Assembly (NCBI GenBank): GCA_040880645.1
Contig: JBBDHZ010000266.1
Coordinates: 1-62,917 of the forward strand
Source of the DNA: Minisyncoccota bacterium
GTDB taxonomy: Bacteria > Patescibacteriota > Minisyncoccia > Phycocordibacterales > CSBR16-193
Direction of reading: 5' to 3'
Length of the DNA: 62,917 nucleotides
Positions 39,125-54,243 of this stretch are shown in pieces (position 1 is the stretch's first letter; each line of letters opens with the position of its first letter). The position numbers and the translations under genes were made by a program. The notes under the pieces are model-generated. The model had not been told where the DNA came from. It was given only the letters and a program-made list of their open reading frames with translations, and searched no databases.

Positions 39125-40633
39125 ATGCTTAAGCAAATCAAGATTGCTGACATCAAGATCGGGAAACGTCACCGCAGAGACATGGGCGATCTTGCCTCCT
39201 TGGCTGACAGCATTCGGCAGATCGGACTACTACACCCGATTGGCGTGACAGAGGACTGCCGACTAGTCTTCGGGCAGCGTCGGCTCCTAGTGCAAAGGGA
39301 CATTCTCAAGAAGAACACAATCCTCGCTCATGTCATCAGCATTGACTTCATCGTCTCAGGCGAACATGCCGAAAACGAAGTCCGCAAAGATTTCACTCCT
39401 TCTGAGCGGGTCGCCATTGCTAAAGCCATCGAACAAAAGATCGGTAGCCGACAAGGGCAACGCACGGACAAGCAACTTCGGGGAAATATCCCCGATGTGT
39501 CTCCAGGCAAACGCACTCGTGAAATTGCAGCAGAGAAGGCGGGGTTCGGGAACGACAAGACTTTCCGCCAGGCCGCCCAAGTCGTCGAAAGCGGCACGCC
39601 GAATCTCGTTCAAGCAATGGACGACGGACGGGTCAGCATTTCGGCGGCGTCGATCATTGCCAATGCCAGCCCTGATGAGCAAGAAACAATCGTTGAATTG
39701 GATTCGAAGGCAATTCTTCAAGCAGCGAAGGAGATTCGAGCGAGGAACGCTGAGAAGCGGGCAGAGCATCAGGCGGCGACGACCGTTAAGCCGCAAAGCC
39801 GAACTAAAAAGCAGTCGCTAAAGGCGACTCGCCTGATCCACGGCGATTGTTGTAAGGAGATGGCGAAGCTGAGGGCAAATAGCGTTGATCTCGTCCTAAC
39901 GGACCCGCCGTATCCAGAAATCAACCGTGAGTACGGAAAGCTCACTGAGGCTAAATGGCACGAGTTAATGCATGAGGTCGTGGACCAGGGCCGCCGTGTG
40001 CTGAAACCCAGTGGATCAATGGTCGTTATCCTTCAGCCCAATTTCGAGAAAATTGGGAAAATGCGTCTTTGGTTGTGGGAGTTCATGGCATGGGCAGGCC
40101 GAGAGTGGAACGTGATCCAAGATGCGTACTGGTGGAATCACGGGTGTTTGCCATCGGTAAGCTCGAACCGCAAGCACGGCTTGATGCGTCAATCGGTAAA
40201 AACGTGCGTGTGGTTGGGACCAGCAGATTGCTACCGCAACCAGGACGATGTGCTTTGGCTTCCGTCTGACGACAACTTCGCCCAGTCCAAGTCGGATGCA
40301 GCCATGCGAGTTGCCCCGTCAGGCCAGCATTATCGTGGGTCGAGGATCGGTGATACCGTCGCCGAGCGTGGCGGATCAACTCCCTTCAACTTGCTACCGG
40401 TAGCCGCAGGAGGCGGGGCTGCGGCAAACAATAGTCACCCAGCCTCCACTCCGTATGCCGTTGCTGCCTGGTGGGTGAAATATCTTTTGCCGAACAAGGG
40501 TGTATTGCTCGACTGCTTCGCAGGTTCAGGAACAATGCTTCTGGCGGGCTTGGATTTTGGAGCGTCGAGAGTCATCGGAATTGAAAAGCAAAAGAAGTAT
40601 CTCAAAATCGCAGAGAAACGGCTCTGCGAGTGA
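39125..40633 (+). CDS. ParB-like N-terminal domain fused to a DNA methyltransferase (beta-class N6A/N4C)
   Basis: ParB-N: IKIGKRHRRDMGDL..LADSIRQIGLLHPI. Motif IV DLVLTDPPYP precedes motif I VLDCFAGSGTMLLAG. Confidence 0.9.
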   Translation: MLKQIKIADIKIGKRHRRDMGDLASLADSIRQIGLLHPIGVTEDCRLVFGQRRLLVQRDILKKNTILAHVISIDFIVSGEHAENEVRKDFTPSERVAIAKAIEQKIGSRQGQRTDKQLRGNIPDVSPGKRTREIAAEKAGFGNDKTFRQAAQVVESGTPNLVQAMDDGRVSISAASIIANASPDEQETIVELDSKAILQAAKEIRARNAEKRAEHQAATTVKPQSRTKKQSLKATRLIHGDCCKEMAKLRANSVDLVLTDPPYPEINREYGKLTEAKWHELMHEVVDQGRRVLKPSGSMVVILQPNFEKIGKMRLWLWEFMAWAGREWNVIQDAYWWNHGCLPSVSSNRKHGLMRQSVKTCVWLGPADCYRNQDDVLWLPSDDNFAQSKSDAAMRVAPSGQHYRGSRIGDTVAERGGSTPFNLLPVAAGGGAAANNSHPASTPYAVAAWWVKYLLPNKGVLLDCFAGSGTMLLAGLDFGASRVIGIEKQKKYLKIAEKRLCE

Positions 40634-42778: not shown

Positions 42779-43633
42779 TTATTGGCTAAGGATTCGCATG
42801 GTTTTTGGTCCAAGCTGCCTGGCCTCTTCGTTAGTAGGGGGGATATCAAAAGCTTCTTGCCAATGGGTCAGTTGGTACTCGGGTAACCTCTCCAGCACTT
42901 GCTGGGCTACTTTGGATATGTAGCCGTCTGCGGAAACGGAATCCCGCAACCCGTCAACTAGCGTATTGAAACTTTGGACGAGATTGCGCCGAGCCAGTCG
43001 CTCAAGAGCAAATAGATGTGCGTAGGCCTCAGCCGCAATCACGTCTAGATGCCGGCTAGGAACGTCAAAGTTAATCCCTCGCTCCAGATCCTCGACGTGA
43101 CCAATCTCGTGAACCAGCGAAATAATCTTGAACGCATACTTTAGCTCATGGTGCTGAACCGAAGTCTGTACGGAACGTCGGATGAGTATTACGCTTCGCA
43201 CGTTACCAGCAGAGTCGTGGAATGCGCTCATCGATCCGCAAAGGTTGGCGTCCAGAGGACTACTTCCATAGTCAGCAAAGGTATCTTCGATCTTGAAGAA
43301 CACTTGCTCCAAGTCGCTATAACCAAATTGTGACCATTCCTGCGTCTCGGCTGCGAATGTCTGATCATCAACTTCGTGAACTCCAAGAAGGGAGGGGTAA
43401 GCCGCTTTTGCCGCCTCTACTGTGCGGTGAAACTCCTCGGAGTAAGAGTCGAGATAATCGTAAAACGGAAGATCACATCCCCGGCTCCGCAGAAGCGCTT
43501 TCATATGGGGGGCTTTCGCCCGAAACTCTTTAATTGTCGCTTTTTCTTGACGCCATTTACGATTCCTCTGTTCCTTCTCAGCGTTCTTCTTCGTGTGCTT
43601 CTTATTCTTATTCTTATTTGCGTTCTTGCTCAT
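42779..43633 (-). CDS. putative zinc metalloprotease (HExxH) with lysine-rich N-terminus
   Basis: ATG at 43633 after GGAGG. N-terminus MSKNANKNKNKKHTKKN. Motif SLVHEIGHVED. Confidence 0.65.
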   Translation of the reverse strand: MSKNANKNKNKKHTKKNAEKEQRNRKWRQEKATIKEFRAKAPHMKALLRSRGCDLPFYDYLDSYSEEFHRTVEAAKAAYPSLLGVHEVDDQTFAAETQEWSQFGYSDLEQVFFKIEDTFADYGSSPLDANLCGSMSAFHDSAGNVRSVILIRRSVQTSVQHHELKYAFKIISLVHEIGHVEDLERGINFDVPSRHLDVIAAEAYAHLFALERLARRNLVQSFNTLVDGLRDSVSADGYISKVAQQVLERLPEYQLTHWQEAFDIPPTNEEARQLGPKTMRILSQ

Positions 43634-43714
43634 ACAGTCTCGCCTCCGTTTAAAGTAAACTTTTCTGTCCGCTCCACTCGTCTCTGTTTTGGCAGTGCCG
43701 CAGGGCACCGCCAG

Positions 43715-44635
43715 TCACCGAGGGCCTAGTCGATCAAAGAGGCTCTTCAGCGTGGTGCAAACCGTCGAAAGCGGCGTCGCCAGTTGCTCAACATGCTTTA
43801 ATTCGGCGGGAGCGGCAAACGTGACGGGGTTCAGTCCAAGCAGATCACTTGGCATCTTCAGATCCAGTCCCCTGGGGCACACTATCACGGTGCGTTCCCT
43901 TCCTAGTTGCCCCATGAACAAACCGAGTTCAAAGACGACGTTGTCTCTCGGTGCTACCGACTGTTTCCGGCGACTCCGAGTCACGTCGTCAGGCATTACC
44001 ACCGCCACAGCGAAATCTGCTGCCGCCACTTCCCGCTCAAGGTCCTCCATGGCCTGCTTCATAGGGCCGAATACCTGATCTGTCCAGACTTTGACATCGC
44101 TAGTGTGATGGTCCAGCTTCAATTGAATCTGTTCGGCAATTGCGAGGTATTCGCTCGATGAGCAAACGAAGACGTGCGGAACCTCGTTTGGACGGCGGAT
44201 CATCTGGTTGCGGTTCCGAAGCCGGTCGCACAGTTCCACTGCTACTCGCCGCCAGAGAGCCGGAAACTCTTCGGCAGCACAAGCGAAGGCAGGCTCAGCA
44301 ACTCTTGCAACAACTGTTTTTTCTGCGGCAATCACGTCTGCGCTTCTTTTGGCCTTGCAGTCGATCAATGCCATCTCGCCGACGTGCGTACCAGCCTGCC
44401 GAATAGCCACCAACCTGCCGTTGGCCTCGATTCGGAGACTACCCGCAACGATCAAGAATAGGTCGTTGTCTTCGTCATCCTGCGAGATCAGCACTTCGCC
44501 AGATGCCAACTCGGATGGTTCGGCTACTTCAAGCAAGCGATCTGCAATTGCATGATCTCCCTTGACGAGCGATTGATTCAACAAAGCATCCCGCAAGAGT
44601 CGCTTCCCGTCACCGCCCTGGAATCGTTCGATCAT
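43715..44635 (-). CDS. cyclic-nucleotide-binding domain + TIR-like (COG4271/CAP12-type) effector
   Basis: CNB: GEVLISQDDEDNDLFLIVAGSLRI...GTHVGEMALI..KRSADVIA. C-terminal half: VFVCSSSEYL...DFAVAVVMPDD...PRDNVVFELGLFMGQLGRERTVIV. ATG at 44635 (MIERFQGG). Confidence 0.85.
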   Translation of the reverse strand: MIERFQGGDGKRLLRDALLNQSLVKGDHAIADRLLEVAEPSELASGEVLISQDDEDNDLFLIVAGSLRIEANGRLVAIRQAGTHVGEMALIDCKAKRSADVIAAEKTVVARVAEPAFACAAEEFPALWRRVAVELCDRLRNRNQMIRRPNEVPHVFVCSSSEYLAIAEQIQLKLDHHTSDVKVWTDQVFGPMKQAMEDLEREVAAADFAVAVVMPDDVTRSRRKQSVAPRDNVVFELGLFMGQLGRERTVIVCPRGLDLKMPSDLLGLNPVTFAAPAELKHVEQLATPLSTVCTTLKSLFDRLGPR

Positions 44636-44666: not shown

Positions 44667-45242
44667 CTACAGTTTTCCCAAATGACATTTCTTGAACTTC
44701 TTGCCGCTCCCGCACGGACATGCATCATTTCTGCCCACCCCACCGATTTCCTGAATTGCTTCACGGATGCCCTCAATCCCGTGTGAACGGTCCGGCCCGG
44801 GCCATTCGGCAACACCGCCACGCAGATTCTTTTCAATCAGTCGTTGCTGGTATATTCTTTCCTTGAGCAAGAAGGTGTGAATGACGGCGAACAACTCGTT
44901 CAGCGATGTGTCGGCGGCGAATGTAATCCCCGACTCTGCTGGCACGAAGAGGCACAGTTTCCAATCGGATTCAATGTGACTATTGCGCTCTTTTTCCCAC
45001 CGATCTCTGTGGCTTTCAAGGTATACCGAGGGAGGCTGGTTGCGGGCCGGGAAATTCGTCGGATAAACGATCCGCAAGCTGACGGCCTCGTACAGATGGC
45101 CATGCTGCGAGTAGAGATTGAAGACGCCACGGATGCAGGCGAGGCCGTCGCTTCCAATTTCGGCTCTGCACTCGTCCAAAATCTCGGAAGCGATTTCCTG
45201 CTCCCGCCGCCAACGTTCCGGCGTAATACTGTGCCAAGACAC
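44667..45242 (-). CDS. Prok-E2 (UBC-fold)-like protein with C-terminal SEC-C zinc motif
   Basis: UBC-like YEAVSLRIVYPTNFPARNQPPSVYLES...NSHIESDWKLCLFVP. The protein ends DACPCGSGKKFKKCH. A GTG at 45242 lies 4 nt after the cyclase stop, with GGAG 7 nt upstream. Confidence 0.7.
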   Translation of the reverse strand: MSWHSITPERWRREQEIASEILDECRAEIGSDGLACIRGVFNLYSQHGHLYEAVSLRIVYPTNFPARNQPPSVYLESHRDRWEKERNSHIESDWKLCLFVPAESGITFAADTSLNELFAVIHTFLLKERIYQQRLIEKNLRGGVAEWPGPDRSHGIEGIREAIQEIGGVGRNDACPCGSGKKFKKCHLGKL

Positions 45243-45246
45243 TTGG

Positions 45247-46809
45247 TTACTCCGACATCCATGGGGTGCTGTTCCGCCACGGCTTCGCCGCCGTGTTGCC
45301 ACCCGTCGTGACCTGGATTCGCCCGTTAACGACGGTCGCACCGAGACTGCCAGCTTCCGCTGCCTTTTCCTCCCTCGTCTCATCGAGTTTCAGGAACGTC
45401 AGGTCCGTGGCAACATATGCGTTTCCACGCTTCGTGAATTGCTCCGTGACATTCTCATCTTCAAGCTGTTCGTAGATTTCGGTGGAGATGCGGATTTGTT
45501 TTGCGCCGGAAAGACGCTGAAGACGCTCGGCCTCGGTGACTTCCGGCCCGAAGCAGATCGTGATGCGTTTGCCCTTCTTGCCGAGCCTCGTGACGAATGC
45601 CTTGCCAACGTCCAACCCAACGGCGACGTTGATGTCCTCCCGGTCAGCGAGATGTTCATTGAGTACCTGTTCCATCGACGATTGCAGGCCAATGGCGAGA
45701 TCGACCGCATCTTGGCAGCGAGTGTCATGGTTGCCGCTACCACTGGGCAAGTGCAGCAGGCCGAGGATGCAGTCACCACGGTGTTGCAGAACCAGCCCAT
45801 CGAAATCGCTGGAGACGACCGAGTGGAACTCGGCCCGGATCATGTGAAACTGCCGGATCAGACTGACAACCTTTTCGTCCGTTTCTGCCTCCTGAACGTA
45901 GCGGGTGAAGCCGTCAAGGTCGGCATAGAAGGCAACCGCCGCCGTCCGCTTGCACTTCTGCTCGCTGAGCTTCGTGACATCGATCAGCGTCGTGGCGTCC
46001 GAGATCGTGATTTTATCCAGCGGAAGATCGTCTTTGTGCTTCTGAGTCTTATTCTTCCACTTCTCTTCGTGCCACGTCACGCCGAGTTCGTCAGCCAACT
46101 CCGGTTTGCAACTCCAGCGAAGGCCGGACGCTCTGTAGGTCTGCACGCCAGACACCTCGGCGTCTTTGCTGAAGTGCTTCCTCAGACATTCCGGCAGCAC
46201 CTCGTACATCTCAGCGGTTACGGTAACGGAATCCCGCCCGCCAATGATCTTCGCCGCAAGGTTGGCGCAGGTGCCGAGGGAAATCAGTTCCCGTTTTCCG
46301 TTCTTTCCGATGTTGGCGAGGTAACAGGTGCCGCTAGCCAAGCCGACAGCGCTGCTGAAGTTGCGAACATCGCCGAAAACCCCGTTGAACACGTCCAGGA
46401 CATAGGTATTCTGCGTAATGGCGTGAATCACGGCGATTTTAGCCCGCTCGGCGTTTTTCGGATCTCCTTTCCCGTTGTAAGGCTTGAAAACTAGACCGTG
46501 CGCTCGGACGGTCTGCCGCTGAATATCGCCGACTCCGCCCTGCTCCATGAGTTCACGCTGAATCCGGCGCAGAATACTAGAGGCACGAATCAACTTCCGC
46601 TGTTTCTGCTGGTCGTTTCCGGCGTCATCCACCGCACGATGGAAGTTGGGCACATCGACGTAGAGGTGAACTCCCTGTGCCCGGCGAACGTCCTTTTTGC
46701 CGAGTTTTGAAAAGTCCATCGACCGGGACATGTCTTGGACGTTCACCTCAAAATCGCTGAAGTCGTTTTTCTGGACTCGCTCCTGAGCCCGTTTTTCATT
46801 CCACGCCAT
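45247..46809 (-). CDS. tandem class III nucleotidyl cyclase-domain protein (degenerate N-domain + intact C-domain)
   Basis: C-domain: VAFYADLDGFTRYV, VLQHRGDCILGLL, VAVGLDVGKAFVTRLG...FGPEVTEAERLQ. N-domain: VHLYVDVPNFHR, VRAHGLVF, SAVGLASGTCYLANIG..LGTCANLAAKI (metal-binding Asp residues partly lost). Confidence 0.85.
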   Translation of the reverse strand: MAWNEKRAQERVQKNDFSDFEVNVQDMSRSMDFSKLGKKDVRRAQGVHLYVDVPNFHRAVDDAGNDQQKQRKLIRASSILRRIQRELMEQGGVGDIQRQTVRAHGLVFKPYNGKGDPKNAERAKIAVIHAITQNTYVLDVFNGVFGDVRNFSSAVGLASGTCYLANIGKNGKRELISLGTCANLAAKIIGGRDSVTVTAEMYEVLPECLRKHFSKDAEVSGVQTYRASGLRWSCKPELADELGVTWHEEKWKNKTQKHKDDLPLDKITISDATTLIDVTKLSEQKCKRTAAVAFYADLDGFTRYVQEAETDEKVVSLIRQFHMIRAEFHSVVSSDFDGLVLQHRGDCILGLLHLPSGSGNHDTRCQDAVDLAIGLQSSMEQVLNEHLADREDINVAVGLDVGKAFVTRLGKKGKRITICFGPEVTEAERLQRLSGAKQIRISTEIYEQLEDENVTEQFTKRGNAYVATDLTFLKLDETREEKAAEAGSLGATVVNGRIQVTTGGNTAAKPWRNSTPWMSE

Positions 46810-47002
46810 TTCGATTTCTCCATGCCAGATCGAGCAAATAAATAGAATTGCTAGCAGACTCGCTGCAATCGCTACAGTCTATCGGTTCGCTATGCAGGAA
46901 GTCAAGCGGCTCACTTGCAGAACCGCCGAATTGAAGCGGACGGAGGAATGCCGTAGGATTTCGTTTTCTAATTACGGAATTAATCGAGAGAGAGCGTGCC
47001 GA

Positions 47003-47413
47003 ATGGCCACCGTGGGGGATCGAATCAGAGATCGTCGAGAAAAGCTCGGCTGGAAGCAGGACGACTTGGCCAGCAAGGCCGGGATCAGTAAGAGTTTTCT
47101 TTCAGACCTAGAAAATGGAAAGCGAAAGGTTGGAGCCGACAAGCTCCTTGACATTGCCCGTGCCCTGAGCTTGTCGCTCGATTACCTAATGACCGGAAGG
47201 GATGCCGAGAACGCATCGCAAGCCGCCCGTGACGTACAAATACCCACGGCGCTGGCCGAGTTCGCTGAAGACGAAGGGCTAACTTTTCGGCAGACCATCG
47301 CCCTGCTGGATATGCAGAACCAGATCATCGCCCACCGAAGCAGCACAAAGAAAGGTAATCTGGAAAAAATCGATTGGCAGAAGTTCTACGAAGCCGTGAA
47401 GGAATTCCTGTGA
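47003..47413 (+). CDS. XRE-family HTH regulator (CapH-like)
   Basis: GDRIRDRREKLGWKQDDLASKAGISKSFLSDLENGKRKVGADKLLDIARAL. It is divergent from the cyclase operon. Confidence 0.85.
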   Translation: MATVGDRIRDRREKLGWKQDDLASKAGISKSFLSDLENGKRKVGADKLLDIARALSLSLDYLMTGRDAENASQAARDVQIPTALAEFAEDEGLTFRQTIALLDMQNQIIAHRSSTKKGNLEKIDWQKFYEAVKEFL

Positions 47414-48411
47414 CCGCATTAGACCAAGAGCAAGACGTAGTTGATCTCGCCCAACGCCTGAGCCTCGGCGGCGACCCAGTCGAAGCGATCATTAACTTCT
47501 GCCAGAAACAGGTCGATGTGTGGGTTCGAGAGGCTGGAGGTGTCGAGACCATCGGCGAATTGGAGGCGTTGATTGCCTCTCGCCTGAACCTCGTTATCGA
47601 AGAGGTCGGGAATGACGCTGATCTCGATGATCTGAAACGCCGGTATGTGCAAAAGGGCGAAATCGTTTTTGCGCATGTCGTGCAGAACGATCTGACACCT
47701 GAGACGTTCGGCACGATGGTTCGGCTCAAAGATGGCTCTCACGTTGCGGTGATCGATTGCCGAGGTGAGAAAGCTGCTCGGCGTTTTTTTACACGGTGGC
47801 ATGAAATTGCGCACCTGTTGGTTGAGCCTGACTGTGAGCAGCAGGTTTTTCGTGCGTCGGACGAGCCGCTAGAAAGGCTGATGGATCAGATCGCCGGTCA
47901 CGTTGGCTTTTACGACTCGATCTTCACGCCCCTCTTCAACACACATTTGTCTCACGGCGAGTTGCTGACGTTCGACAGGATCGATGATATCCGAAAGGCG
48001 TTCTGTCCCCACGCCAGCTTTCAATCAACGCTCTTTGCCTGCCAGCGGCGAATGAGGACGCCCGTGCTGTATCTTGAAGCTAGCATGGCATACACCGAAG
48101 ACGAGCGGCGTAGCCTAAGGCAGGCTCGGATGTTTGCGGACGACTGCCCCGAGAAGAAGCTTCGTGTTCGCTTGACGCTGCCGAACAAAGCTGCTGGTGA
48201 CATGAAGCTTGCGGCTCGGCGGAACATGCAAGTGCCTGAGTCGTCGGTCATCTATGCGGCATTTCATGACCAGCTAACCGCTGCAACAGGCGAAGAAAAC
48301 CTCAAGACATGGACGTTTTCAAGCGGCGGCAGTCTGATGGATTGCGAGGTATTTGTTCAAGCACGTCGAGTGGAAGATAGTGTGATGGCAACCGTTCAAC
48401 CCAGAGCTTGA
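47410..48411 (+). CDS. ImmA/IrrE-family zinc metallopeptidase (CapP-like)
   Basis: FTRWHEIAHLL contains the HExxH motif. The GTG start overlaps the HTH stop (GTGA at 47410-47413) and follows AAGGAA. Confidence 0.8.
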   Translation: MTALDQEQDVVDLAQRLSLGGDPVEAIINFCQKQVDVWVREAGGVETIGELEALIASRLNLVIEEVGNDADLDDLKRRYVQKGEIVFAHVVQNDLTPETFGTMVRLKDGSHVAVIDCRGEKAARRFFTRWHEIAHLLVEPDCEQQVFRASDEPLERLMDQIAGHVGFYDSIFTPLFNTHLSHGELLTFDRIDDIRKAFCPHASFQSTLFACQRRMRTPVLYLEASMAYTEDERRSLRQARMFADDCPEKKLRVRLTLPNKAAGDMKLAARRNMQVPESSVIYAAFHDQLTAATGEENLKTWTFSSGGSLMDCEVFVQARRVEDSVMATVQPRA

Positions 48412-48431: not shown

Positions 48432-49367
48432 TTACTGGTGACATGCTGACATGATGAAAAGAAGGATGTGCTTGTTGGCTCTTTGGAGACCACTGAAGTA
48501 GGCCTTCCTTTTCTCGGTCGCCTCTTCGCCAGTCACGTGGCGGTTGAGCATTATGGTACCTGGGTCGGGCACATTTGCAGTTATGTCATCGATTGCAGCG
48601 TGCCTACCAGGTCCAAAAACGTGTCGCAACTCTTCCAGACGTTTCAGTTGAAGCCGAGCGATATTAACAGCTTCCTCAAATGCTTCCGGGTCGTCACTTC
48701 GGACCGCATGGGTCTCGATTAGCGATTGTATATTTAAGTAAACTCTTAAGAGTTCCTCAAGTCGCCAAACATGCGACCCCTCCTCGGTTACGATGCTTAA
48801 GGACGGGTGGAGCTTGCGGATTTCCGGCTCCAAGTCACGCACGAGAATTTGCAGCGACTGACTGACCCTAGCCTGCACAACCAATCCTTCAACGACGGGA
48901 AAGGTAGCGAGCTTGTCCATCGTTGGGTCAGCCGTCATTCGCCACTGGCTTAGCTGCCTGAGCGATTCGAGTGCGTTCATGTACGAAGCGAGGAATAACC
49001 GCTTCTCCGATTCCTGCTGTGTTTCAACCATGCGGCGATGCTCCTGCCTCGTTGCCTTCAGTTCTTGGCGTGTCAGCTTCATTTCTTCCCGTTGGAGCTG
49101 CAACTCTCTTCGTTGCATCCAAAGCGTGACCAACACACCCGCAAACACTAACGCAGACAATAGTGCGTTTACAAAGCCGAACGAATCACCCCACTGAGCT
49201 GCTGCTTCTGGAAACGTCTCTGCCCAGTCAGGCCGCAATAGGAACGTCACCCAAGGGGTCAGCCCAACCAATGCGCCTAGTACCAGAACGGCAATGAATA
49301 CCCAAAAAATCGTCTGCCACCGAAAGAAGTCAGCATCATTTATGTCATTCGGTTTCATCGTTGTCAC
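48432..49367 (-). CDS. two-TM coiled-coil membrane protein
   Basis: TM segments IFWVFIAVLVLGALVGL and LLSALVFAGVLVTLW, then RRELQLQREEMKLTRQELKATRQEHRR. The start overlaps the upstream HTH stop (GTGA). Confidence 0.65.
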   Translation of the reverse strand: MTTMKPNDINDADFFRWQTIFWVFIAVLVLGALVGLTPWVTFLLRPDWAETFPEAAAQWGDSFGFVNALLSALVFAGVLVTLWMQRRELQLQREEMKLTRQELKATRQEHRRMVETQQESEKRLFLASYMNALESLRQLSQWRMTADPTMDKLATFPVVEGLVVQARVSQSLQILVRDLEPEIRKLHPSLSIVTEEGSHVWRLEELLRVYLNIQSLIETHAVRSDDPEAFEEAVNIARLQLKRLEELRHVFGPGRHAAIDDITANVPDPGTIMLNRHVTGEEATEKRKAYFSGLQRANKHILLFIMSACHQ

Positions 49368-49705
49368 TCGTCCCCAATCTCCTCCAGCAGTCGATCAATC
49401 GCTTCATCGTCGAGCTGTGCAAAACGACGGAAAGCATCTGGGCGTTCGATAACCCGCTGTTTGATCCCGTTCGGTATCTTCTCAGCCAGAATCAGAAGCT
49501 CGTCCACATCGGCATCCAGCGTTGCTGCAAGCCTGGCAATCAACTCATCACCCGGGTAGTCGCCGAAACCCAGTTTCTCGTTTTCGATCTTGGAAATGTA
49601 GGTGAAGGAAACACCGACCGCTTCGGCCAACGCCCGCAAGGAAAGGCTCTTCGCCTTGCGGAGTTCTCGAATTCTCAGGCCGAATCGCATCGGGGTGGTC
49701 TCCAT
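49364..49705 (-). CDS. XRE-family HTH regulator
   Basis: FGLRIRELRKAKSLSLRALAEAVGVSFTYISKIENEK. Confidence 0.85.
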   Translation of the reverse strand: METTPMRFGLRIRELRKAKSLSLRALAEAVGVSFTYISKIENEKLGFGDYPGDELIARLAATLDADVDELLILAEKIPNGIKQRVIERPDAFRRFAQLDDEAIDRLLEEIGDE

Positions 49706-49744
49706 GGTTGCGAGCTACGACGCCCAACAATACGATGGGTTGAA

Positions 49745-49782
49745 CAAAGAGTCAACGCAACAGCAAAGAGTCAACGCAACAG
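49745..49782. promoter_or_regulatory. perfect 19-bp tandem direct repeat (candidate operator)
   Basis: CAAAGAGTCAACGCAACAG occurs at 49745-49763 and again at 49764-49782. This lies in the divergent intergenic region, ending inside the AGGAGG at 49781-49786. Confidence 0.6.
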
Positions 49783-49792
49783 GAGGGGTCCG

Positions 49793-51010
49793 CTGAAACC
49801 CGAGCTACTCGAACAACTGCTTTACGAAGAAGAGGGGCCAACGCTGGACTTCAAGCGGGACCAGTACGCCTTCAGTAAGGCCACGGACGAGGAGAAAAGC
49901 GAACTTTTGAAGGACATCCTCGGATTTGTGAATTGCTGGCGACGGTCCGAAGCCTTCATCCTGATCGGGGTTGAAGAAGTCCGAGGCGGTCGCAGCAACG
50001 TACACGGTGTTTCGGATCACTTGGATGATCATTCGCTTCAGCAGTTCATAAACAACCTGACGAATCGGCCTGTCCAATTTGGCTACGAAGCCTGCGAATT
50101 TGAGGGCCAGCAGGTGGGGATCATTCGGGTCGAGTTGCAACGGCGACCCGTGTACCTGAAACGGGACTACGGCAAGCTGAAAAAAGGACTAGTCTACGTC
50201 CGGCGTGGCAGCTCCACCGATCCCACAAAGCCTGCCGATCCCGATGAGATTGCGCACATGGGGAGCGGACAGGCTGTTGAAGCGAAAGAAGCATCGCTGA
50301 CAGTGGAATTTGCTTCGACAGAGAGCGAGCAATCGCTGGGCAGTCTAATCGATTTGTCAGCCGAATTCTGCCAGATGCCAACATCAGAACAGATTCCTAC
50401 GCTCGATGACACACCAGCTCCGATTCGTCTGCCTGGCGGCGAAACTTTCCAGATACCGAGCTCCTCGTCGCTGGACTTTTATAACCGCCTAAATCCTGAT
50501 TTTTTCCGTGAGCTTGCCGAATATGTCGTCTTTCACAAACTCCTCAAGAAGGTGCGGTTAGTTGTACTGAATGCAGGGGAATCACCAGCCACAGATGTCC
50601 GTCTCGAAATCTGTATACCGGACGGTCAGGGCTTCGGAGTTGTCGACTTGCTAGAAGCTCCTGAGACTCCGAAGCGACGAACGGGCCTTTTAGTTGCCTC
50701 TGCGATTGAGAACATGAGACGACAACCTCTAATCCGACAGGCTGGTGATGTGGATATCGACAAGAACGACCACCGAACAAAGATTGAAATCGAATGCGGC
50801 AATCTTCAGCCAGGACGCAAGGTTTGGACGGACGCCTTTTATATTGGCATTGGCCAAGCGGGCGAATTCAAAATGACTGGAAACGTCTTTTCAGCTAACC
50901 TTTCCCAGCCCCAGGAGTTTACCTTGGCAATTAACGCCGACTTTATCGAAACAACGATGACCGTTGACGAGCTGGTGGCGCTGGGAAATTCGGATGAGGA
51001 CGAGGAGTAG
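49793..51010 (+). CDS. AlbA_2 / Schlafen-like (divergent AAA_4) domain protein
   Basis: EGPTLDFKRDQY..., LLKDILGFVNCWRRSEAFILIGVEE, VGIIRVELQRRPVYL. The start is uncertain. No ATG/GTG/TTG lies in frame after the divergent gene, and a CTG at 49793 sits 6 nt after AGGAGG. Confidence 0.65.
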   Translation: MKPELLEQLLYEEEGPTLDFKRDQYAFSKATDEEKSELLKDILGFVNCWRRSEAFILIGVEEVRGGRSNVHGVSDHLDDHSLQQFINNLTNRPVQFGYEACEFEGQQVGIIRVELQRRPVYLKRDYGKLKKGLVYVRRGSSTDPTKPADPDEIAHMGSGQAVEAKEASLTVEFASTESEQSLGSLIDLSAEFCQMPTSEQIPTLDDTPAPIRLPGGETFQIPSSSSLDFYNRLNPDFFRELAEYVVFHKLLKKVRLVVLNAGESPATDVRLEICIPDGQGFGVVDLLEAPETPKRRTGLLVASAIENMRRQPLIRQAGDVDIDKNDHRTKIEIECGNLQPGRKVWTDAFYIGIGQAGEFKMTGNVFSANLSQPQEFTLAINADFIETTMTVDELVALGNSDEDEE

Positions 51011-51072
51011 AACGTGGTCGGAGATAATTGCCGCAGTTAATGAGAGAGACCGCAGGGGAAGGCAGAAACGAA

Positions 51073-54000
51073 ATGGAAACAGCAACTGCCACGACGAACG
51101 TGCCCGAGCAAGGACAACTGGTGCAGGTTCGTTCTCGGCGGTGGGTCGTCAATAACGTGAAGCCCAGCAGCCTGCCCGCTGTCGCTTTTAAGCCGGAATT
51201 TGCAGGTCCCCAGAACTTGCTGACGCTTTCCTCCGTGGAAGACGACGGCCTAGGCGAAGAACTTCAGGTCGTTTGGGAGGGCGAGCCGGGTGCCCGTGTC
51301 ATCGAGAAGGTTGCTCTGCCCGACCCGACTGGTTTCGATGCTCCCGACAAGCTCGACGCTTTCCTCGACGCCGTTCGCTGGGGCGCAGCTTCCACGGCTG
51401 ACCTGAAGAACATCCAGTCGCCCTTCCGAAGTGGCATCGAGATTGAGGACTACCAGCTTGACCCCGTGGTCCGGGCGATCCAGATGCCGAGGGTCAACCT
51501 GCTCATTGCCGACGATGTTGGCTTGGGAAAAACCATCGAAGCAGGGATGGTCGCTCTCGAACTGTTGATTCGTCACCGAGCGAGGAAGATGCTGATTGTC
51601 GTCCCGTCGTCGCTACAGATTCAGTGGCGGGATCAGATGCGGGACAAGTTCGGCCTTGAGTTCCGCATCGTCGATTCCGAGTTGATGAAGGAATTGCGTC
51701 GAAAAAGAGGTATCCATGTTAATCCGTGGAGCCACTTCCCACGGCTCATCACGAGCATCGATTTTCTGAAGCGGGAACGACCACTCCGTCTGTTCCGAGA
51801 GACCCTGCCTGCACCGGGCGAACCAATTTATCCCCGCAAGTACGACCTACTGATTTGCGACGAGGCCCACAACTGCGCCCCTTCTGGTCGAGGCAAATAC
51901 GCCACCGATTCGATGAGGACGCAGGCCCTACGGGAACTTGCCCCACATTTCGAGCACAAGCTGTTCCTCACGGCCACACCCCACAACGGATATCGGGAGA
52001 GCTTCAGTGCTCTGCTAGAACTGCTGGACAACCAACGGTTTTCTCGTGGAACAGACCCGGATCGCAAGCAGCTTGAAGCGATCATGGTTCGACGACTGAA
52101 AACCGACCCAAGTTTTGCAAAGAAGTGGGACGGCACGCCTCGCTTTCCGCCTCGTGTCCTCGAACCCATCGAAGTGCCGTACACGGACGAGGAACGGGAA
52201 ATTCATGCAGCGTTGCGTGAATACACGAAACTCCGCTCTGACCGAGCAACCGACAACACGGAGCGGTTCGCCACGGAGTTCGTGCTGAAGACGCTGAAGA
52301 AGCGACTGTTTTCCAGTCCTGCTGCTTTCCTCACCACGCTGGAACGTCACGAGAAGTCACTCAAGTCGGCAAAGAAAAAGGTCGTGGCAAAGCCAAAGAT
52401 GAGCGTGCTCCAGCGTGAGTTCGACCGGATGGAGGAGGATTACGCCGACGACTTCGAGTACGACGAGGCAACGGACGACGCCCTCGATTCGGCGACACGG
52501 CTGTTTGCCGAGCCGACTAGTGAGGAAAAAGCGTTACTGAAACAGATGAAAAAGTGGGCCGAGCGTGCCCGTGCGCAACAGGACTCGAAAACCAAGCAGT
52601 TGATTGAGTGGCTGAAGGACAACCTCAAGCCGGGCGGCAATTGGTCCCACGAGCGGGTCATCATCTTCACCGAGTACCGAGCGACGCAGAACTGGTTGCA
52701 AGAGGTGCTTGCCACTGAAGGCTTCGGTGGTGGTGATAGGCTGATGACTATGTACGGTGGCATGGACAGCGACCAGCGGGAAGCCGTCAAAGCCGCTTTC
52801 CAAACTGATCCTGAAAAGAGTCCGGTTCGCATCCTGCTGGCGACTGATGCTGCATCGGAAGGTCTCGATTTCCAGAACTTCTGCTCTCGGTTGATCCACT
52901 ACGAGATTCCGTGGAACCCGAACCGAATGGAGCAGCGAAACGGTCGTGTGGACAGGCACGGTCAGAAGGCCGACAAGGTGATGGTCTACCACTTCGTCGG
53001 TAAGGGCTACAACGAGCGAGCCGCTCGCCAGTCCAGCGGCCATGCTTCAGACATGGAGGCCGACCTTGAATTCCTCATGCGGGTCGCTCAGAAGATCGAG
53101 ACAATCCGAGAAGACCTCGGCAAAGTCGGTCCAGTGATCTCCGAGCAAGTGGAAGAGGCGATGTTAGGTCGGCGGTCAACGCTACAAACCGCTGACGCCG
53201 AGCGTGACGCCGAGCCGATCCGCAAGATGCTTCGTTTCGAGCGTGACCTGCACAAGCAGGTTCAGGCGTTGATGGAGCAGTACAGGGAGACTCGTCGGGA
53301 ACTGCGGTTGTCCCCGGAGAACGTCCAAAAAGTTGTAACGGTGGCTCTCGAACTAGCCGGGCAACCAGCGTTAGTGCCGACCAAGACCGAAGACGGCACG
53401 CCCTGCTTCCAGCTACCGCCACTCAAAGGAAGTTGGGCGGCATGTGCCGAAGGCTTGGAACATCCTCACACCAAAGAGATTCGCCCGATCACCTTCAGCG
53501 AGTCCGTGAGCAAGGGTCGGGACGATGTGGTGCTGGTTCACCTGAATCATCGCCTGCCGCAGATGTGCCTGCGGCTGCTGCGTGCGGAGGTTTGGGCGGA
53601 AAAAGGTCGGTCAAAACTGGAGCGTGTGACCGCACGTGTCATTCCCAACGATATCATCGACTCTCCAGCCATGATCGCCCACGCTCGACTGGTGGTGATC
53701 GGCGGGGACAGCTACCGGCTGCACGAAGAGATCATCGCCGCTGGTGGGCTCATCAAGGAAGGGAAGTGGGGTGGTCGCCTGAACGTCGGGCAGACGGAGA
53801 AGGCATTGGCGGCTGGAAGGGATCAAGAGCCATCTTCAGCAGTCGAGGAGAAACTGCTGGAGCTTTATCCCGAGCTTGTGCCGTCGCTTGCTTCGGCCCT
53901 CGAAGCACGAATGAAGGATCGGGTCGGCGGTTTAGAGAAACGGCTCAACGAACGTGCCGAGAAGGAAGCCAAAGACATCGAGGCAATTTTGACGGAACTC

Positions 54001-54243
54001 AAGAAAGCCATCGAAGCCGAACTGAACGACCCGGAATACCACCAATTGACGCTTTTCGATGATGCGGAGCGAAATCAGTTCGAGCGGAACAAGAGCGCCA
54101 TGCGGTCGAGGGCGCAAGAGATTCCGGGTGAGATCGAGCGGGAGACGGAGGCGATCAGAGCCAGATTTGCGAATCCGCAGGCGAGGATGTTCCCGGTGGC
54201 GGTGACGTTCTTGGTGCCTGAAAAGTTGGCGGGAGGTGCGTGA
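51073..54243 (+). CDS. SNF2-family helicase (DISARM DrmD-like)
   Basis: DYQLDPVVRAI, ADDVGLGKTIEAG, LICDEAHN, LFLTATPHNG. Helicase-C region: VIIFTEY, LLATDAASEGLDFQ, YEIPWNPNRMEQRNGRVDRHGQ. Confidence 0.9.
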   Translation: METATATTNVPEQGQLVQVRSRRWVVNNVKPSSLPAVAFKPEFAGPQNLLTLSSVEDDGLGEELQVVWEGEPGARVIEKVALPDPTGFDAPDKLDAFLDAVRWGAASTADLKNIQSPFRSGIEIEDYQLDPVVRAIQMPRVNLLIADDVGLGKTIEAGMVALELLIRHRARKMLIVVPSSLQIQWRDQMRDKFGLEFRIVDSELMKELRRKRGIHVNPWSHFPRLITSIDFLKRERPLRLFRETLPAPGEPIYPRKYDLLICDEAHNCAPSGRGKYATDSMRTQALRELAPHFEHKLFLTATPHNGYRESFSALLELLDNQRFSRGTDPDRKQLEAIMVRRLKTDPSFAKKWDGTPRFPPRVLEPIEVPYTDEEREIHAALREYTKLRSDRATDNTERFATEFVLKTLKKRLFSSPAAFLTTLERHEKSLKSAKKKVVAKPKMSVLQREFDRMEEDYADDFEYDEATDDALDSATRLFAEPTSEEKALLKQMKKWAERARAQQDSKTKQLIEWLKDNLKPGGNWSHERVIIFTEYRATQNWLQEVLATEGFGGGDRLMTMYGGMDSDQREAVKAAFQTDPEKSPVRILLATDAASEGLDFQNFCSRLIHYEIPWNPNRMEQRNGRVDRHGQKADKVMVYHFVGKGYNERAARQSSGHASDMEADLEFLMRVAQKIETIREDLGKVGPVISEQVEEAMLGRRSTLQTADAERDAEPIRKMLRFERDLHKQVQALMEQYRETRRELRLSPENVQKVVTVALELAGQPALVPTKTEDGTPCFQLPPLKGSWAACAEGLEHPHTKEIRPITFSESVSKGRDDVVLVHLNHRLPQMCLRLLRAEVWAEKGRSKLERVTARVIPNDIIDSPAMIAHARLVVIGGDSYRLHEEIIAAGGLIKEGKWGGRLNVGQTEKALAAGRDQEPSSAVEEKLLELYPELVPSLASALEARMKDRVGGLEKRLNERAEKEAKDIEAILTELKKAIEAELNDPEYHQLTLFDDAERNQFERNKSAMRSRAQEIPGEIERETEAIRARFANPQARMFPVAVTFLVPEKLAGGA

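What the first reader, a model, noticed from the sequence alone, without database searches (positions are those of the whole stretch)
44667..45242. Stand-alone E2-like protein with SEC-C motif wedged between cyclase and effector
YPTNFPARNQPPSVYLES followed by NSHIESDWKLCLFVP reproduces the UBC core pattern (YP..P.PP.V.F ... H.N ... G.ICL), including a candidate catalytic Cys. The C-terminus CPCGSGKKFKKCH is a SEC-C metal-binding motif. The GTG start lies only 4 nt after the cyclase stop, which implies co-translation.

In type II CBASS an E1/E2 fusion (Cap2) conjugates the cyclase to prime it. Here an E2 occurs alone, which suggests a different or E1-independent regulatory chemistry.
Basis: partly seen in the sequence, partly recalled or inferred. 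Interest (0 to 1): 0.6.

Follow-up and report, generated by a model that had tools for sequence, protein, structure and literature searches.

The report
E2-only regulator of a Pycsar-like defence operon
The gene encodes a small ubiquitin-conjugating-enzyme-like (E2) protein with a zinc-binding tail that most likely grips and processes the end of the neighbouring antiviral cyclase without any E1 enzyme; this is known for a different cyclase type (E2-CBASS) but is untested for this one.

Summary
Window 44667-45242 (-) encodes a 191-aa protein whose GTG start lies 4 nt after the cyclase stop, behind a GGAG. It has a UBC/E2 fold (AF2 pLDDT 96.5; VIA Z 8.8-10.5 to UEV, the Cap2 E2 domain and the Serratia CdnG-bound E2) and a C-terminal SEC-C motif (Pfam 2.2e-10). 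PADLOC calls the three genes PycC, E2 and PycTIR.

Cys97 and His89 are invariant across 97 relatives. His154 is invariant in the 20 close and the 49 distant relatives. This is the Cys/two-His set reported for the E1-independent E2 of "E2-CBASS".

The order cyclase-E2-effector recurs in all six other loci examined. One of them is a natural cyclase-E2 fusion. A seventh cyclase of the clade carries Cap2-like E2-E1 plus JAB instead.

The cyclases end in a conserved [KR]PW-x-(S/G/A)-x tail. CD-NTases next to related E2s carry the same [KR]PW tail. A control-tested complex model puts this tail at the Cys/His site.

E2-only regulation is therefore already known in CBASS, and E2-like genes beside Pycsar-like cyclases have been noted in a 2026 preprint. 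This is a new variant: class III cyclase partner, non-glycine tail, SEC-C. Interest is moderate.

Earlier scan notes on this window describe the same module.

The parts
44667..45242 (-). E2-SEC-C gene (191 aa, GTG start, stop included)
   Evidence: Translation; PADLOC E2 at 1.4e-18; 160 homologues; AF2 pLDDT 96.5.
44745..45242 (-). UBC-fold E2 core, residues 1-166
   Evidence: VIA-align: Tsg101 UEV Z 10.5 (rmsd 3.6, 123 aligned), Cap2 E2 domain 7to3_A Z 9.6 (3.5, 118), SmE2 8hsb_B Z 8.8 (4.1, 138). All listed Foldseek hits are UBC or UEV.
44952..44954 (-). Codon of Cys97, the predicted catalytic nucleophile
   Evidence: Invariant in 97 family members and in the 49 distant CBASS-type members. 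The codon reads GCA on the + strand, which is TGC on the - strand.
44976..44978 (-). Codon of His89 (HIExD motif, 8 residues before Cys97)
   Evidence: Invariant in 97 sequences. It sits at the position of the UBC 'HPN' His. Its proposed counterpart is the essential H87 of SmE2 (10.1101/2022.05.25.493364).
44781..44783 (-). Codon of His154 (WPGxxRSHG motif)
   Evidence: Invariant in the 20 close relatives and in the 49 distant relatives, where it is H143 of P0178. Its proposed counterpart is H152 of SmE2.
44679..44732 (-). SEC-C zinc-knuckle motif, residues 171-188 (CPCGSGKKFKKCH)
   Evidence: Pfam PF02810 at 2.2e-10. The family profile matches the SecA and YchJ C-termini at 7e-9 and 1e-7. Cys175, Cys177 and Cys186 are conserved in at least 90% of 97 relatives.
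45250..45253 (-). GGAG Shine-Dalgarno for the E2 gene, inside the last cyclase codons
   Evidence: Read directly from the minus-strand sequence.
45247..46809 (-). PycC-type class III nucleotide cyclase, 520 aa
   Evidence: PADLOC PycC at 4.4e-103; Pfam Guanylate_cyc at 3.1e-15 over residues 294-466.
45250..45279 (-). Cyclase C-terminal tail, residues 511-520 (RNSTPWMSE end), the predicted E2 substrate or docking element
   Evidence: The [KR]PW-x-[SGA]-x-COOH tail is conserved in 112 of 119 homologues. Residues 511-519 touch E2 residues 89, 91, 95-100 and 147-155 in the complex model.
43715..44635 (-). Effector: cNMP-binding domain plus CAP12/Pycsar TIR domain (about 306 aa)
   Evidence: Pfam PF10137 at 1.3e-30 and PF00027 at 1.2e-13; PADLOC TIR effector at 4.7e-112 and PycTIR at 2.7e-102.
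46892..48411 (+). Divergent XRE-HTH gene plus HExxH (M78-like) gene, a CapH/CapP-like regulator pair
   Evidence: Pfam HTH_3 at 5e-16. The HEIAH region aligns to the Peptidase_M78 gene at the same position in L090 (E 0.003). The same pair sits upstream in L001, L002, L090, L091 and L085.

Best explanation
The gene encodes the ancillary E2 of a three-gene Pycsar-like abortive-infection operon: cyclase, E2, then a cNMP-activated TIR NADase.

Proposed mechanism, by analogy with the E2 of E2-only CBASS. The E2 docks on the C-terminal helix, hairpin and tail of the cyclase. It uses Cys97, with His89 and His154, as a protease-like transpeptidase. It clips off the last residue or residues after the conserved [KR]PW-x-(S/G/A) tail and forms a cyclase~Cys97 thioester without E1 or ATP. 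It then passes the cyclase to a lysine on itself, on another cyclase or on a target. This conjugation primes or restrains cNMP synthesis. The cNMP then switches on the TIR effector to deplete NAD+.

What is shown here: the E2 fold, the invariant Cys/His/His set, the conserved gene order, the natural fusion, the conserved tail, and a complex model that passes its controls.

What is inferred: the covalent chemistry, the exact scissile bond, the direction of regulation, and the role of the SEC-C zinc knuckle. The SEC-C motif is accessory, since one family member lacks it.
For: 1. Identity. PADLOC assigns E2 at 1.4e-18, PycC at 4.4e-103 and PycTIR/TIR effector at 1e-102 to 1e-112.

2. Fold. AF2 on a 97-sequence alignment gives pLDDT 96.5 and pTM 0.90. 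VIA Z is 10.5 for Tsg101 UEV, 9.6 for the Cap2 E2 domain and 8.8 for the CdnG-bound SmE2 8hsb_B, which has the widest coverage at 138 residues. The family profile finds UBC enzymes by sequence.

3. Catalytic set. H89 and C97 are invariant in 97 sequences. In the 49 distant CBASS-type members, H86, C95 and H143 of P0178, at the H89, C97 and H154 motif positions of the window protein, are the only invariant columns. This matches the C101/H87/H152 set shown by mutagenesis in SmE2 (10.1101/2022.05.25.493364).

4. Context. The order cyclase-E2-effector is found in L001, L002, L084, L090 and L091, and as a single 716-aa PycC-E2-SEC-C fusion with PycTM in L083. At least 30 E2 and cyclase homologues share identical longest-contig lengths.

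5. More distant E2 relatives (profile E 4e-17 and 2e-7) sit directly after CD-NTases. These are E2-CBASS loci.

6. Tail. 112 of 119 cyclase homologues end [KR]PW-x-x-x. The penultimate residue is S, G or A in 86 of 112, against a 22% background. This parallels SmCdnG, which ends Y-G406-E407. CD-NTase partners of related E2s end RPWFGHSKR, KPWSYE and KPWGPKR, and 90 of 120 homologues of one of them carry [KR]P[WYF] in the last 14 residues. The clade member that has Cap2-like E2-E1 plus JAB instead lacks the motif and ends GGGRYA.

7. Complex model. ipSAE is 0.80 against 0.40 for the best of 3 controls. That mark was reached by 58 of 80 solved complexes and 2 of 110 mismatched pairs; these counts hold only roughly because my own alignments were used. 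The runs agree in at least 81% of contacts and the partner pLDDT is at least 86. The interface is cyclase 472-502 and tail 511-519 against E2 89, 91, 95-100 and 147-155.

8. No ThiF or Prok-JAB was found in the assembly.
Against: - No biochemistry exists for this family.
- The protein is not detectably similar in sequence to SmE2. No hit to 8hsb appeared in PDB sequence searches, so the equivalence of the His/Cys/His residues rests on conservation and fold, not on a superposition I could inspect.
- The cyclase tail lacks the conserved Gly of E2-CBASS and Cap2 substrates. Ser or Trp as acyl donor is unprecedented, and in SmCdnG G406V and G406L abolish linkage.
- The complex pass may partly reflect memory of the solved CdnG-E2 complex. 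The control in which chain 1 was replaced still scored 0.40.
- The assembly is only 69% complete, so an E1 elsewhere cannot be excluded.
- The top fold hit is a catalytically dead UEV domain.
Confidence: 0.68

Rival explanations
1. Non-covalent regulator. The E2 is a UEV-like clamp that binds the cyclase C-terminal tail and holds the enzyme off (or on) until a phage cue releases it, with no thioester or isopeptide chemistry.
For: The best fold match is the non-catalytic Tsg101 UEV domain, Z 10.5. The complex model supports tight binding but says nothing about catalysis. The cyclase tail has no Gly.
Against: Cys97 and His89 are invariant across 97 sequences. The Cys/His/His set stays invariant among relatives down to about 20-30% identity. 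That is hard to explain for a mere clamp. The tail is modelled at exactly these residues. Related E2s in CBASS are catalytic (10.1101/2022.05.25.493364).
Confidence: 0.14
2. Canonical E2 served in trans. The protein receives the cyclase, or a ubiquitin-like protein, from an E1 encoded elsewhere in the genome, as the Cap2 E2 domain does in type II CBASS and type II Pycsar.
For: A cyclase of the same clade (54% identical over residues 300-520) is paired with a Prok-E2_B-ThiF fusion and a JAB in L092. The HIExD...LCL active-site segment aligns with that Cap2-like E2. The assembly is only 69% complete.
Against: No ThiF or Prok-JAB hit in the 2.1-Mb assembly. There is none in any of the six related operons that carry this E2. 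The tail type differs between the E2-only loci ([KR]PW) and the Cap2 locus (GGGRYA). The second conserved His (H154) is a hallmark of the E1-independent E2s.
Confidence: 0.08
3. The SEC-C motif drives the function. The protein mainly tethers the cyclase to a SecB-like chaperone, the ribosome or the membrane through its SEC-C knuckle, or it senses a phage factor there. The E2 domain would be only an adaptor.
For: SEC-C Cys ligands are kept in at least 90% of 97 relatives, in both CBASS and Pycsar contexts. SecA's SEC-C zinc domain is the best PDB sequence match, 7e-9; that it binds SecB and ribosomes is established knowledge, not tested here. SEC-C residue 177 lies at the modelled interface.
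Against: L091 encodes a 168-aa orthologue that stops before the SEC-C motif yet keeps the operon intact. The studied SmE2 chain is only about 160 residues (target length 159), too short for such a C-terminal extension. The E2 core is at least as conserved as the SEC-C motif.
Confidence: 0.1

Closest known systems
E2 of E2-only CBASS ('type II short', 'E2-CBASS'), e.g. Serratia marcescens SmE2 with CdnG (PDB 8HSB; 10.1101/2022.05.25.493364; PMC12948482)
   Same: Both are stand-alone UBC-fold E2s encoded directly after the signal-producing cyclase, with no E1 or JAB. Both have an invariant Cys plus two His. In both the partner carries a dedicated C-terminal helix/beta/tail that inserts at the active site. 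Natural cyclase-E2 fusions exist for both. PADLOC CBASS E2 models hit the protein, and profile-level relatives sit beside CD-NTases.
   Different: The partner here is a two-domain class III (Pycsar-type) cyclase, not a CD-NTase. The tail ends [KR]PW-x-S-x rather than a conserved Gly plus one residue. The protein carries a SEC-C zinc motif. No direct sequence hit to SmE2 was found. The effector is cNMP-binding TIR.
Cap2/Cap3 of type II CBASS and 'type II Pycsar' (E2-E1 fusion plus JAB)
   Same: The E2 fold matches (Z 9.6 to 7to3_A residues 7-153). The HIExD..LCL active-site segment aligns. The same cyclase clade can carry Cap2-like plus JAB instead (L092).
   Different: There is no adenylation/E1 domain and no JAB peptidase. 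The tail motif differs. The extra His154/WPG motif and the SEC-C motif are present here.
'Pycsar-like-4' cNMP cyclase subclade associated with E2-like genes (bioRxiv 10.64898/2026.08.12.744502)
   Same: It is a Pycsar-related cyclase with a neighbouring E2-like gene and CNBD-TIR or TM effectors. One relative's locus also has a WYL regulator, as that paper describes.
   Different: [quoted passage not shown] Its text does not mention a stand-alone E2 with SEC-C, the [KR]PW tail or the fusion. I could not check whether this cyclase is in their tree.
Canonical two-gene Pycsar (PycC plus PycTIR or PycTM)
   Same: The cyclase and effector match PADLOC PycC and PycTIR models over their full length.
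   Different: There is a third, conserved gene (the E2) between them. The cyclase has two cyclase-homology domains and a dedicated C-terminal tail. The nucleotide product is unknown.

Membership tests
UBC/E2 superfamily | UBC alpha/beta fold (N-terminal helix, four-stranded sheet, long helix) | tested here: met
   Model pLDDT 96.5 with elements H8-21, E23-29, E35-44, E50-59, E72-75 and H113-141. The 50 VIA rows shown are dominated by UBC, UEV and RWD folds, with Z up to 10.5. All listed Foldseek rows are UBC or UEV.
UBC/E2 superfamily | Catalytic Cys on the loop after strand 4, with a His about 8-10 residues upstream (HPN position) | tested here: met
   C97 and H89 are invariant in 97 sequences. 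The motif reads HIExD rather than HPN.
UBC/E2 superfamily | Forms a thioester with its cargo | not testable with these tools
   This needs biochemistry.
E2 of E2-only CBASS (SmE2-like) | Stand-alone E2 next to the cyclase, with no E1 or JAB in the operon | tested here: met
   Window ORFs and Pfam; six related loci; no ThiF or Prok-JAB in the assembly.
E2 of E2-only CBASS (SmE2-like) | Cys plus two His (C101, H87, H152 in SmE2) | tested here: met
   H89, C97 and H154 are conserved. In the distant set the equivalent three positions are the only invariant columns. Residue-by-residue equivalence to SmE2 is inferred, not superposed.
E2 of E2-only CBASS (SmE2-like) | Sequence-level family membership | tested here: met
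   PADLOC E2 models PDLC00865, PDLC00872 and PDLC00861 score 1e-18 to 1e-13. There is no direct hit to the SmE2 chain itself.
E2 of E2-only CBASS (SmE2-like) | The partner is a CD-NTase | tested here: not met
   The partner is a Guanylate_cyc/PycC class III cyclase.
E2 of E2-only CBASS (SmE2-like) | The partner ends in a conserved Gly followed by a short leaving group | tested here: not met
   The window cyclase ends ...PWMSE. The penultimate residue across the clade is S in 68, G in 12 and A in 6 of 112. So it is small, but usually not Gly.
E2 of E2-only CBASS (SmE2-like) | The cyclase C-terminal tail inserts into the E2 active site | tested here: inconclusive
   The complex model scores 0.80 against a best control of 0.40 and places tail 511-519 at E2 89-100 and 147-155. 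This is a model, not a measurement.
Cap2 (E2-E1 fusion) of type II CBASS/Pycsar | C-terminal adenylation (ThiF/E1) domain | tested here: not met
   The protein has 191 aa, made up of the E2 core plus SEC-C only.
Cap2 (E2-E1 fusion) of type II CBASS/Pycsar | Operon-encoded JAB peptidase (Cap3) | tested here: not met
   There is none in the window neighbourhood or in the assembly.
Pycsar | PycC-type cyclase plus a cNMP-activated TIR or TM effector in one operon | tested here: met
   PADLOC PycC at 4.4e-103 and PycTIR at 2.7e-102; Pfam cNMP_binding plus CAP12-PCTIR_TIR.
Pycsar | The signal is a cyclic pyrimidine (cCMP or cUMP) | not testable with these tools
   A preprint predicts an ATP preference for the E2-associated subclade. 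This was not tested here.
SEC-C motif (PF02810) | CxC...C[HC] zinc knuckle above the Pfam threshold | tested here: met
   40.6 bits against a 20.4 cut-off. The ligands are C175, C177, C186 and H187.

The most novel reading that the evidence does not exclude
The SEC-C-type E2 and the [KR]PW C-terminal tail form a portable, E1-independent 'tail-and-ligase' cassette. It has been grafted onto two unrelated signal-generating folds, CD-NTase and class III cyclase. This E2 subfamily activates a non-glycine C-terminus (Ser, or the Trp itself), which would widen the known chemistry of E2-like enzymes. The SEC-C knuckle would act as the lysine-rich acceptor or as the phage-sensing input.
Probability: 0.3. 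Interest if true: 0.65.

Novelty: new variant of a known kind. Interest (0 to 1): 0.45.

Why it matters
E1-independent, protease-like E2 chemistry has been shown so far for one CBASS system with a CD-NTase partner and a glycine tail.

This family suggests that the same ancillary module regulates class III (Pycsar-type) cyclases. It also suggests that the module recognises a different, easily searchable tail, [KR]PW-x-small-x. That tail is also present on the CD-NTases that pair with the same E2 subfamily.

This gives a concrete, testable rule for which defence cyclases are E2-regulated. It supplies a natural fusion that supports the pairing. It also offers a test case for whether bacterial E2s can use non-glycine acyl donors, which bears on how ubiquitin-like conjugation arose.

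Tried and rejected
- Single-sequence AF2 gave an unusable model, pLDDT 39. It was replaced by the alignment-based run.
- A PDB sequence search with the close-family profile found no E2, only weak YafQ noise at E 0.15. The wider profile was needed.
- The genome-contig scan with the full-length alignment was captured by the SEC-C pattern. None of the 80 loci contains an E2 core by hmmsearch.
- Whole-genome searches found the E2 in 0 of 400 other sampled genomes of the assembly's own phylum, and in 0 of 400 other sampled genomes of the phylum of Fuerstiella. The system was not found in those searched, so no prevalence figure could be derived.
- Two context look-ups returned no DNA.
- The Burroughs 2015 NAR paper could not be read.
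- I considered the 309-aa HEIGH-motif ORF (42779-43708) downstream of the effector as a fourth operon member. I rejected it: it has no Pfam hit, and the genes downstream of the effector in L001, L002 and L084 differ (transposases; 165 aa and HNH; 230 aa).
- I considered the antisense ORFs 44844-45311 (+) and 45118-46494 (+). I rejected them as mechanical ORFs opposite two strongly conserved genes.

Full report
**Observation.** The minus-strand ORF 44667-45242 encodes 191 residues with the quoted motifs. The cyclase gene (45247-46809) ends PWMSE-TAA. Four bases (CCAA) later comes the GTG, preceded at 7 nt by a GGAG that lies inside the last cyclase codons. Homologues begin at the same M-x-W-H position, so the GTG is the real start rather than the upstream ATG of the mechanical 238-aa ORF. 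The effector starts 31 nt after the E2 stop.

**What the three genes are.**
- Pfam sees only SEC-C in the protein (2.2e-10). It sees Guanylate_cyc in the upstream gene, and cNMP_binding plus CAP12/Pycsar TIR in the downstream gene.
- PADLOC calls them E2 (1.4e-18), PycC (4.4e-103) and PycTIR/TIR effector (1e-102 to 1e-112).
- An XRE-HTH gene and an HExxH gene run divergently upstream. They resemble the CapH/CapP pairs of CBASS, and the pairing recurs in related loci.

**Fold.** A single-sequence model failed. With a 97-sequence alignment that reaches CBASS-type relatives, AF2 gives pLDDT 96.5 and pTM 0.90.
- All listed Foldseek hits are UBC or UEV domains, with weak E-values of about 2e-3.
- VIA-align against 48,161 chains gives Tsg101 UEV at Z 10.5 (rmsd 3.6, 123 aligned), the E2 domain of Cap2 (7to3_A residues 7-153) at Z 9.6, UFC1 at Z 9.3, and the E2 of the Serratia CdnG-E2 complex (8hsb_B) at Z 8.8. 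The last has the longest alignment: 138 residues, model 5-178.
- The family profile also recovers eukaryotic UBC enzymes by sequence, 3e-5 to 4e-3, and SecA/YchJ SEC-C peptides at 7e-9.

**Catalytic residues.** Across the 97 sequences only H89 and C97 are invariant. W147, P148, G149, H154 and the SEC-C cysteines are at least 90% conserved. Among the 49 distant, CBASS-type members the only invariant columns are one His, the Cys and a second His, equivalent to H89, C97 and H154. In the one studied E2-only system, C101 and H87 are essential for cleaving the cyclase C-terminus and forming the thioester. H152 governs the interconversion of isopeptide and thioester. These histidines are said to be specific to E2-only systems (10.1101/2022.05.25.493364). 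The match of the conserved set is good. The one-to-one equivalence is an inference, because the two proteins are not alignable by sequence.

**Family and context.** There are 160 homologues at E<=1e-3. The few that carry a source name are labelled 'SEC-C domain protein' or 'hypothetical protein', and the named organisms are Planctomycetota. The exhaustive representative search gives 118 clusters, 27 of them below 1e-30.

The order cyclase-E2-effector is kept in:
- Fuerstiella (L001) and Tautonia (L002);
- L084;
- L090, where the E2 gene was not called but is intact with a TTG start;
- L091, where the E2 stops before the SEC-C motif.

In L083 the cyclase, E2 and SEC-C form one 716-aa protein followed by PycTM. 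At least thirty E2 and cyclase homologues share the same longest-contig length.

More distant E2 relatives lie directly after CD-NTases with SAVED or other effectors. These are classical E2-only CBASS loci. One relative lies after a two-domain cyclase in a locus with a WYL regulator.

A cyclase of the same clade (P0356) is instead followed by Prok-E2_B-ThiF, Prok-JAB and PycTM. That is the full 'type II Pycsar' layout.

**The cyclase tail.**
- 113 of 119 cyclase homologues carry P[WY] in the last 14 residues, and 94 have exactly three residues after it.
- Among the 112 with [KRQT]P[WYF], the penultimate residue is Ser 68, Gly 12 and Ala 6, against a 22% background for these residues.
- This recalls SmCdnG, which ends Y-G406-E407. 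There E407 is removed, G406 is the acyl donor, and Ala is tolerated while Val and Leu are not.
- The three CD-NTases next to related E2s end RPWFGHSKR, KPWSYE and KPWGPKR.
- 90 of 120 homologues of one of them have P[WYF] within the last 14 residues, preceded by K or R in 88, and followed by 2-5 variable residues in 84.
- The Cap2-associated cyclase lacks the motif and ends GGGRYA.

The tail therefore tracks the type of ancillary protein rather than the cyclase fold.

**Complex model.** The cyclase C-terminal half (residues 280-520, 51-row alignment) was modelled with the E2 (97 rows).
- ipSAE is 0.80 against 0.40 for the best of three controls.
- That mark was reached by 58 of 80 solved complexes and by 2 of 110 mismatched pairs. 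The counts hold only roughly, because my own alignments were used.
- The runs agree in at least 81% of contacts and the partner pLDDT is at least 86.
- The interface is the cyclase helix/hairpin 472-502 plus tail 511-519, against E2 residues 89, 91, 95-100 and 147-155, that is, around H89, C97 and H154.
- A similar complex (CdnG-E2) has been solved, so part of the pass may be memory. The cyclase here is unrelated to CdnG.

**No E1 or JAB.** Neither ThiF nor Prok-JAB is found in the 2.1-Mb, 69%-complete assembly, nor in the six related E2-bearing operons examined.

**Interpretation.** The most likely reading (about 0.68) is an E2-CBASS-like, E1-independent Cys/His transpeptidase that processes and conjugates the cyclase through its C-terminal tail and so gates cNMP production and TIR-mediated NAD+ depletion. 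Rivals:
- a purely non-covalent UEV-like clamp (0.14);
- an E2 served by an E1 in trans (0.08);
- a mainly SEC-C-driven tethering or sensing function (0.10).

**Novelty.** E2-only CBASS has been catalogued and mechanistically studied. 'Type II Pycsar' is named in a 2024 preprint. A 2026 preprint notes a 'Pycsar-like-4' subclade associated with E2-like genes. Ancillary Cap modules are also known to move between signal producers. I did not find in the library:
- the stand-alone E2 with SEC-C beside a class III cyclase;
- its [KR]PW tail shared with CD-NTase partners;
- the natural fusion;
- any experiment on this family.

The call is a new variant of a known kind, of moderate interest.

Noticed in passing
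A7 (P0178, P0214, P0218, P0226, P0227); P0128 and P0157 junctions: CBASS-type E2s of this family begin M-x-x-KPW-[FY], the same tripeptide that ends their partner cyclases. In the natural PycC-E2 fusions the second PW of the cyclase tail falls exactly where W3 of the free E2 lies (W, six residues, then RW). This could be a junction duplication at gene fission or a functional mimicry. It is unexplained.
   Followed up: partly
window 46892-48411 (+): A divergent XRE-HTH gene plus an HExxH (HEIAH) protein resemble the CapH/CapP regulators. The same pair, or a fused HTH-M78 gene, lies upstream of the cyclase in L001, L002, L090 and L091, and upstream of an E2-CBASS operon in L085. Pfam does not call M78 in the window protein.
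   Followed up: partly
L092:836-5365: A cyclase of the same clade is followed by Prok-E2_B-ThiF (601 aa), Prok-JAB and PycTM. This is a full E1-E2/JAB 'type II Pycsar', and its cyclase tail ends GGGRYA instead of [KR]PW.
   Followed up: partly
L090:5585-6190 (+): An intact E2-SEC-C gene with a TTG start, 201 aa, was not called in the public annotation. It lies between the cyclase and the TIR effector, so the locus looks two-gene when it is three-gene.
   Followed up: yes
L091:5581-6087 (+): An orthologous E2 of 168 aa ends just before the SEC-C motif (hhalign probability 100%). The zinc knuckle is therefore dispensable in at least one lineage.
   Followed up: yes
locus of P0167 (no DNA held): The locus carries a WYL regulator, a cNMP-binding cyclase (380 aa), a cyclase of 514 aa and an E2-SEC-C (218 aa). 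It has two cyclases and no obvious TIR or TM effector within the genes shown.
   Followed up: no
window 42779-43708 (-): A 309-aa ORF with a lysine/asparagine-rich N-terminus and an HEIGH metallopeptidase-like motif starts 7 nt after the effector stop. It has no Pfam hit, and no counterpart is evident downstream of the effector in L001, L002 or L084.
   Followed up: partly
G000 (whole assembly) and window contig C266: The assembly's same-order and same-class relatives are listed with genomes of 0.5-0.9 Mb. G000 itself is 2.1 Mb at 69% completeness, and the only named organisms among homologues of the E2 and the cyclase are Planctomycetota. The contig's GC (54.7%) and tetranucleotide profile fit the rest of the bin, so the taxonomic placement of the whole bin may deserve a check.
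   Followed up: partly
window 39125-40633, 49361-54243: The operon sits in a defence-island-like stretch. Neighbours are a DNA methyltransferase (N6_N4_Mtase), a Schlafen/AlbA_2 protein, an SNF2-family helicase, and an HTH gene with a two-TM protein.
   Followed up: no
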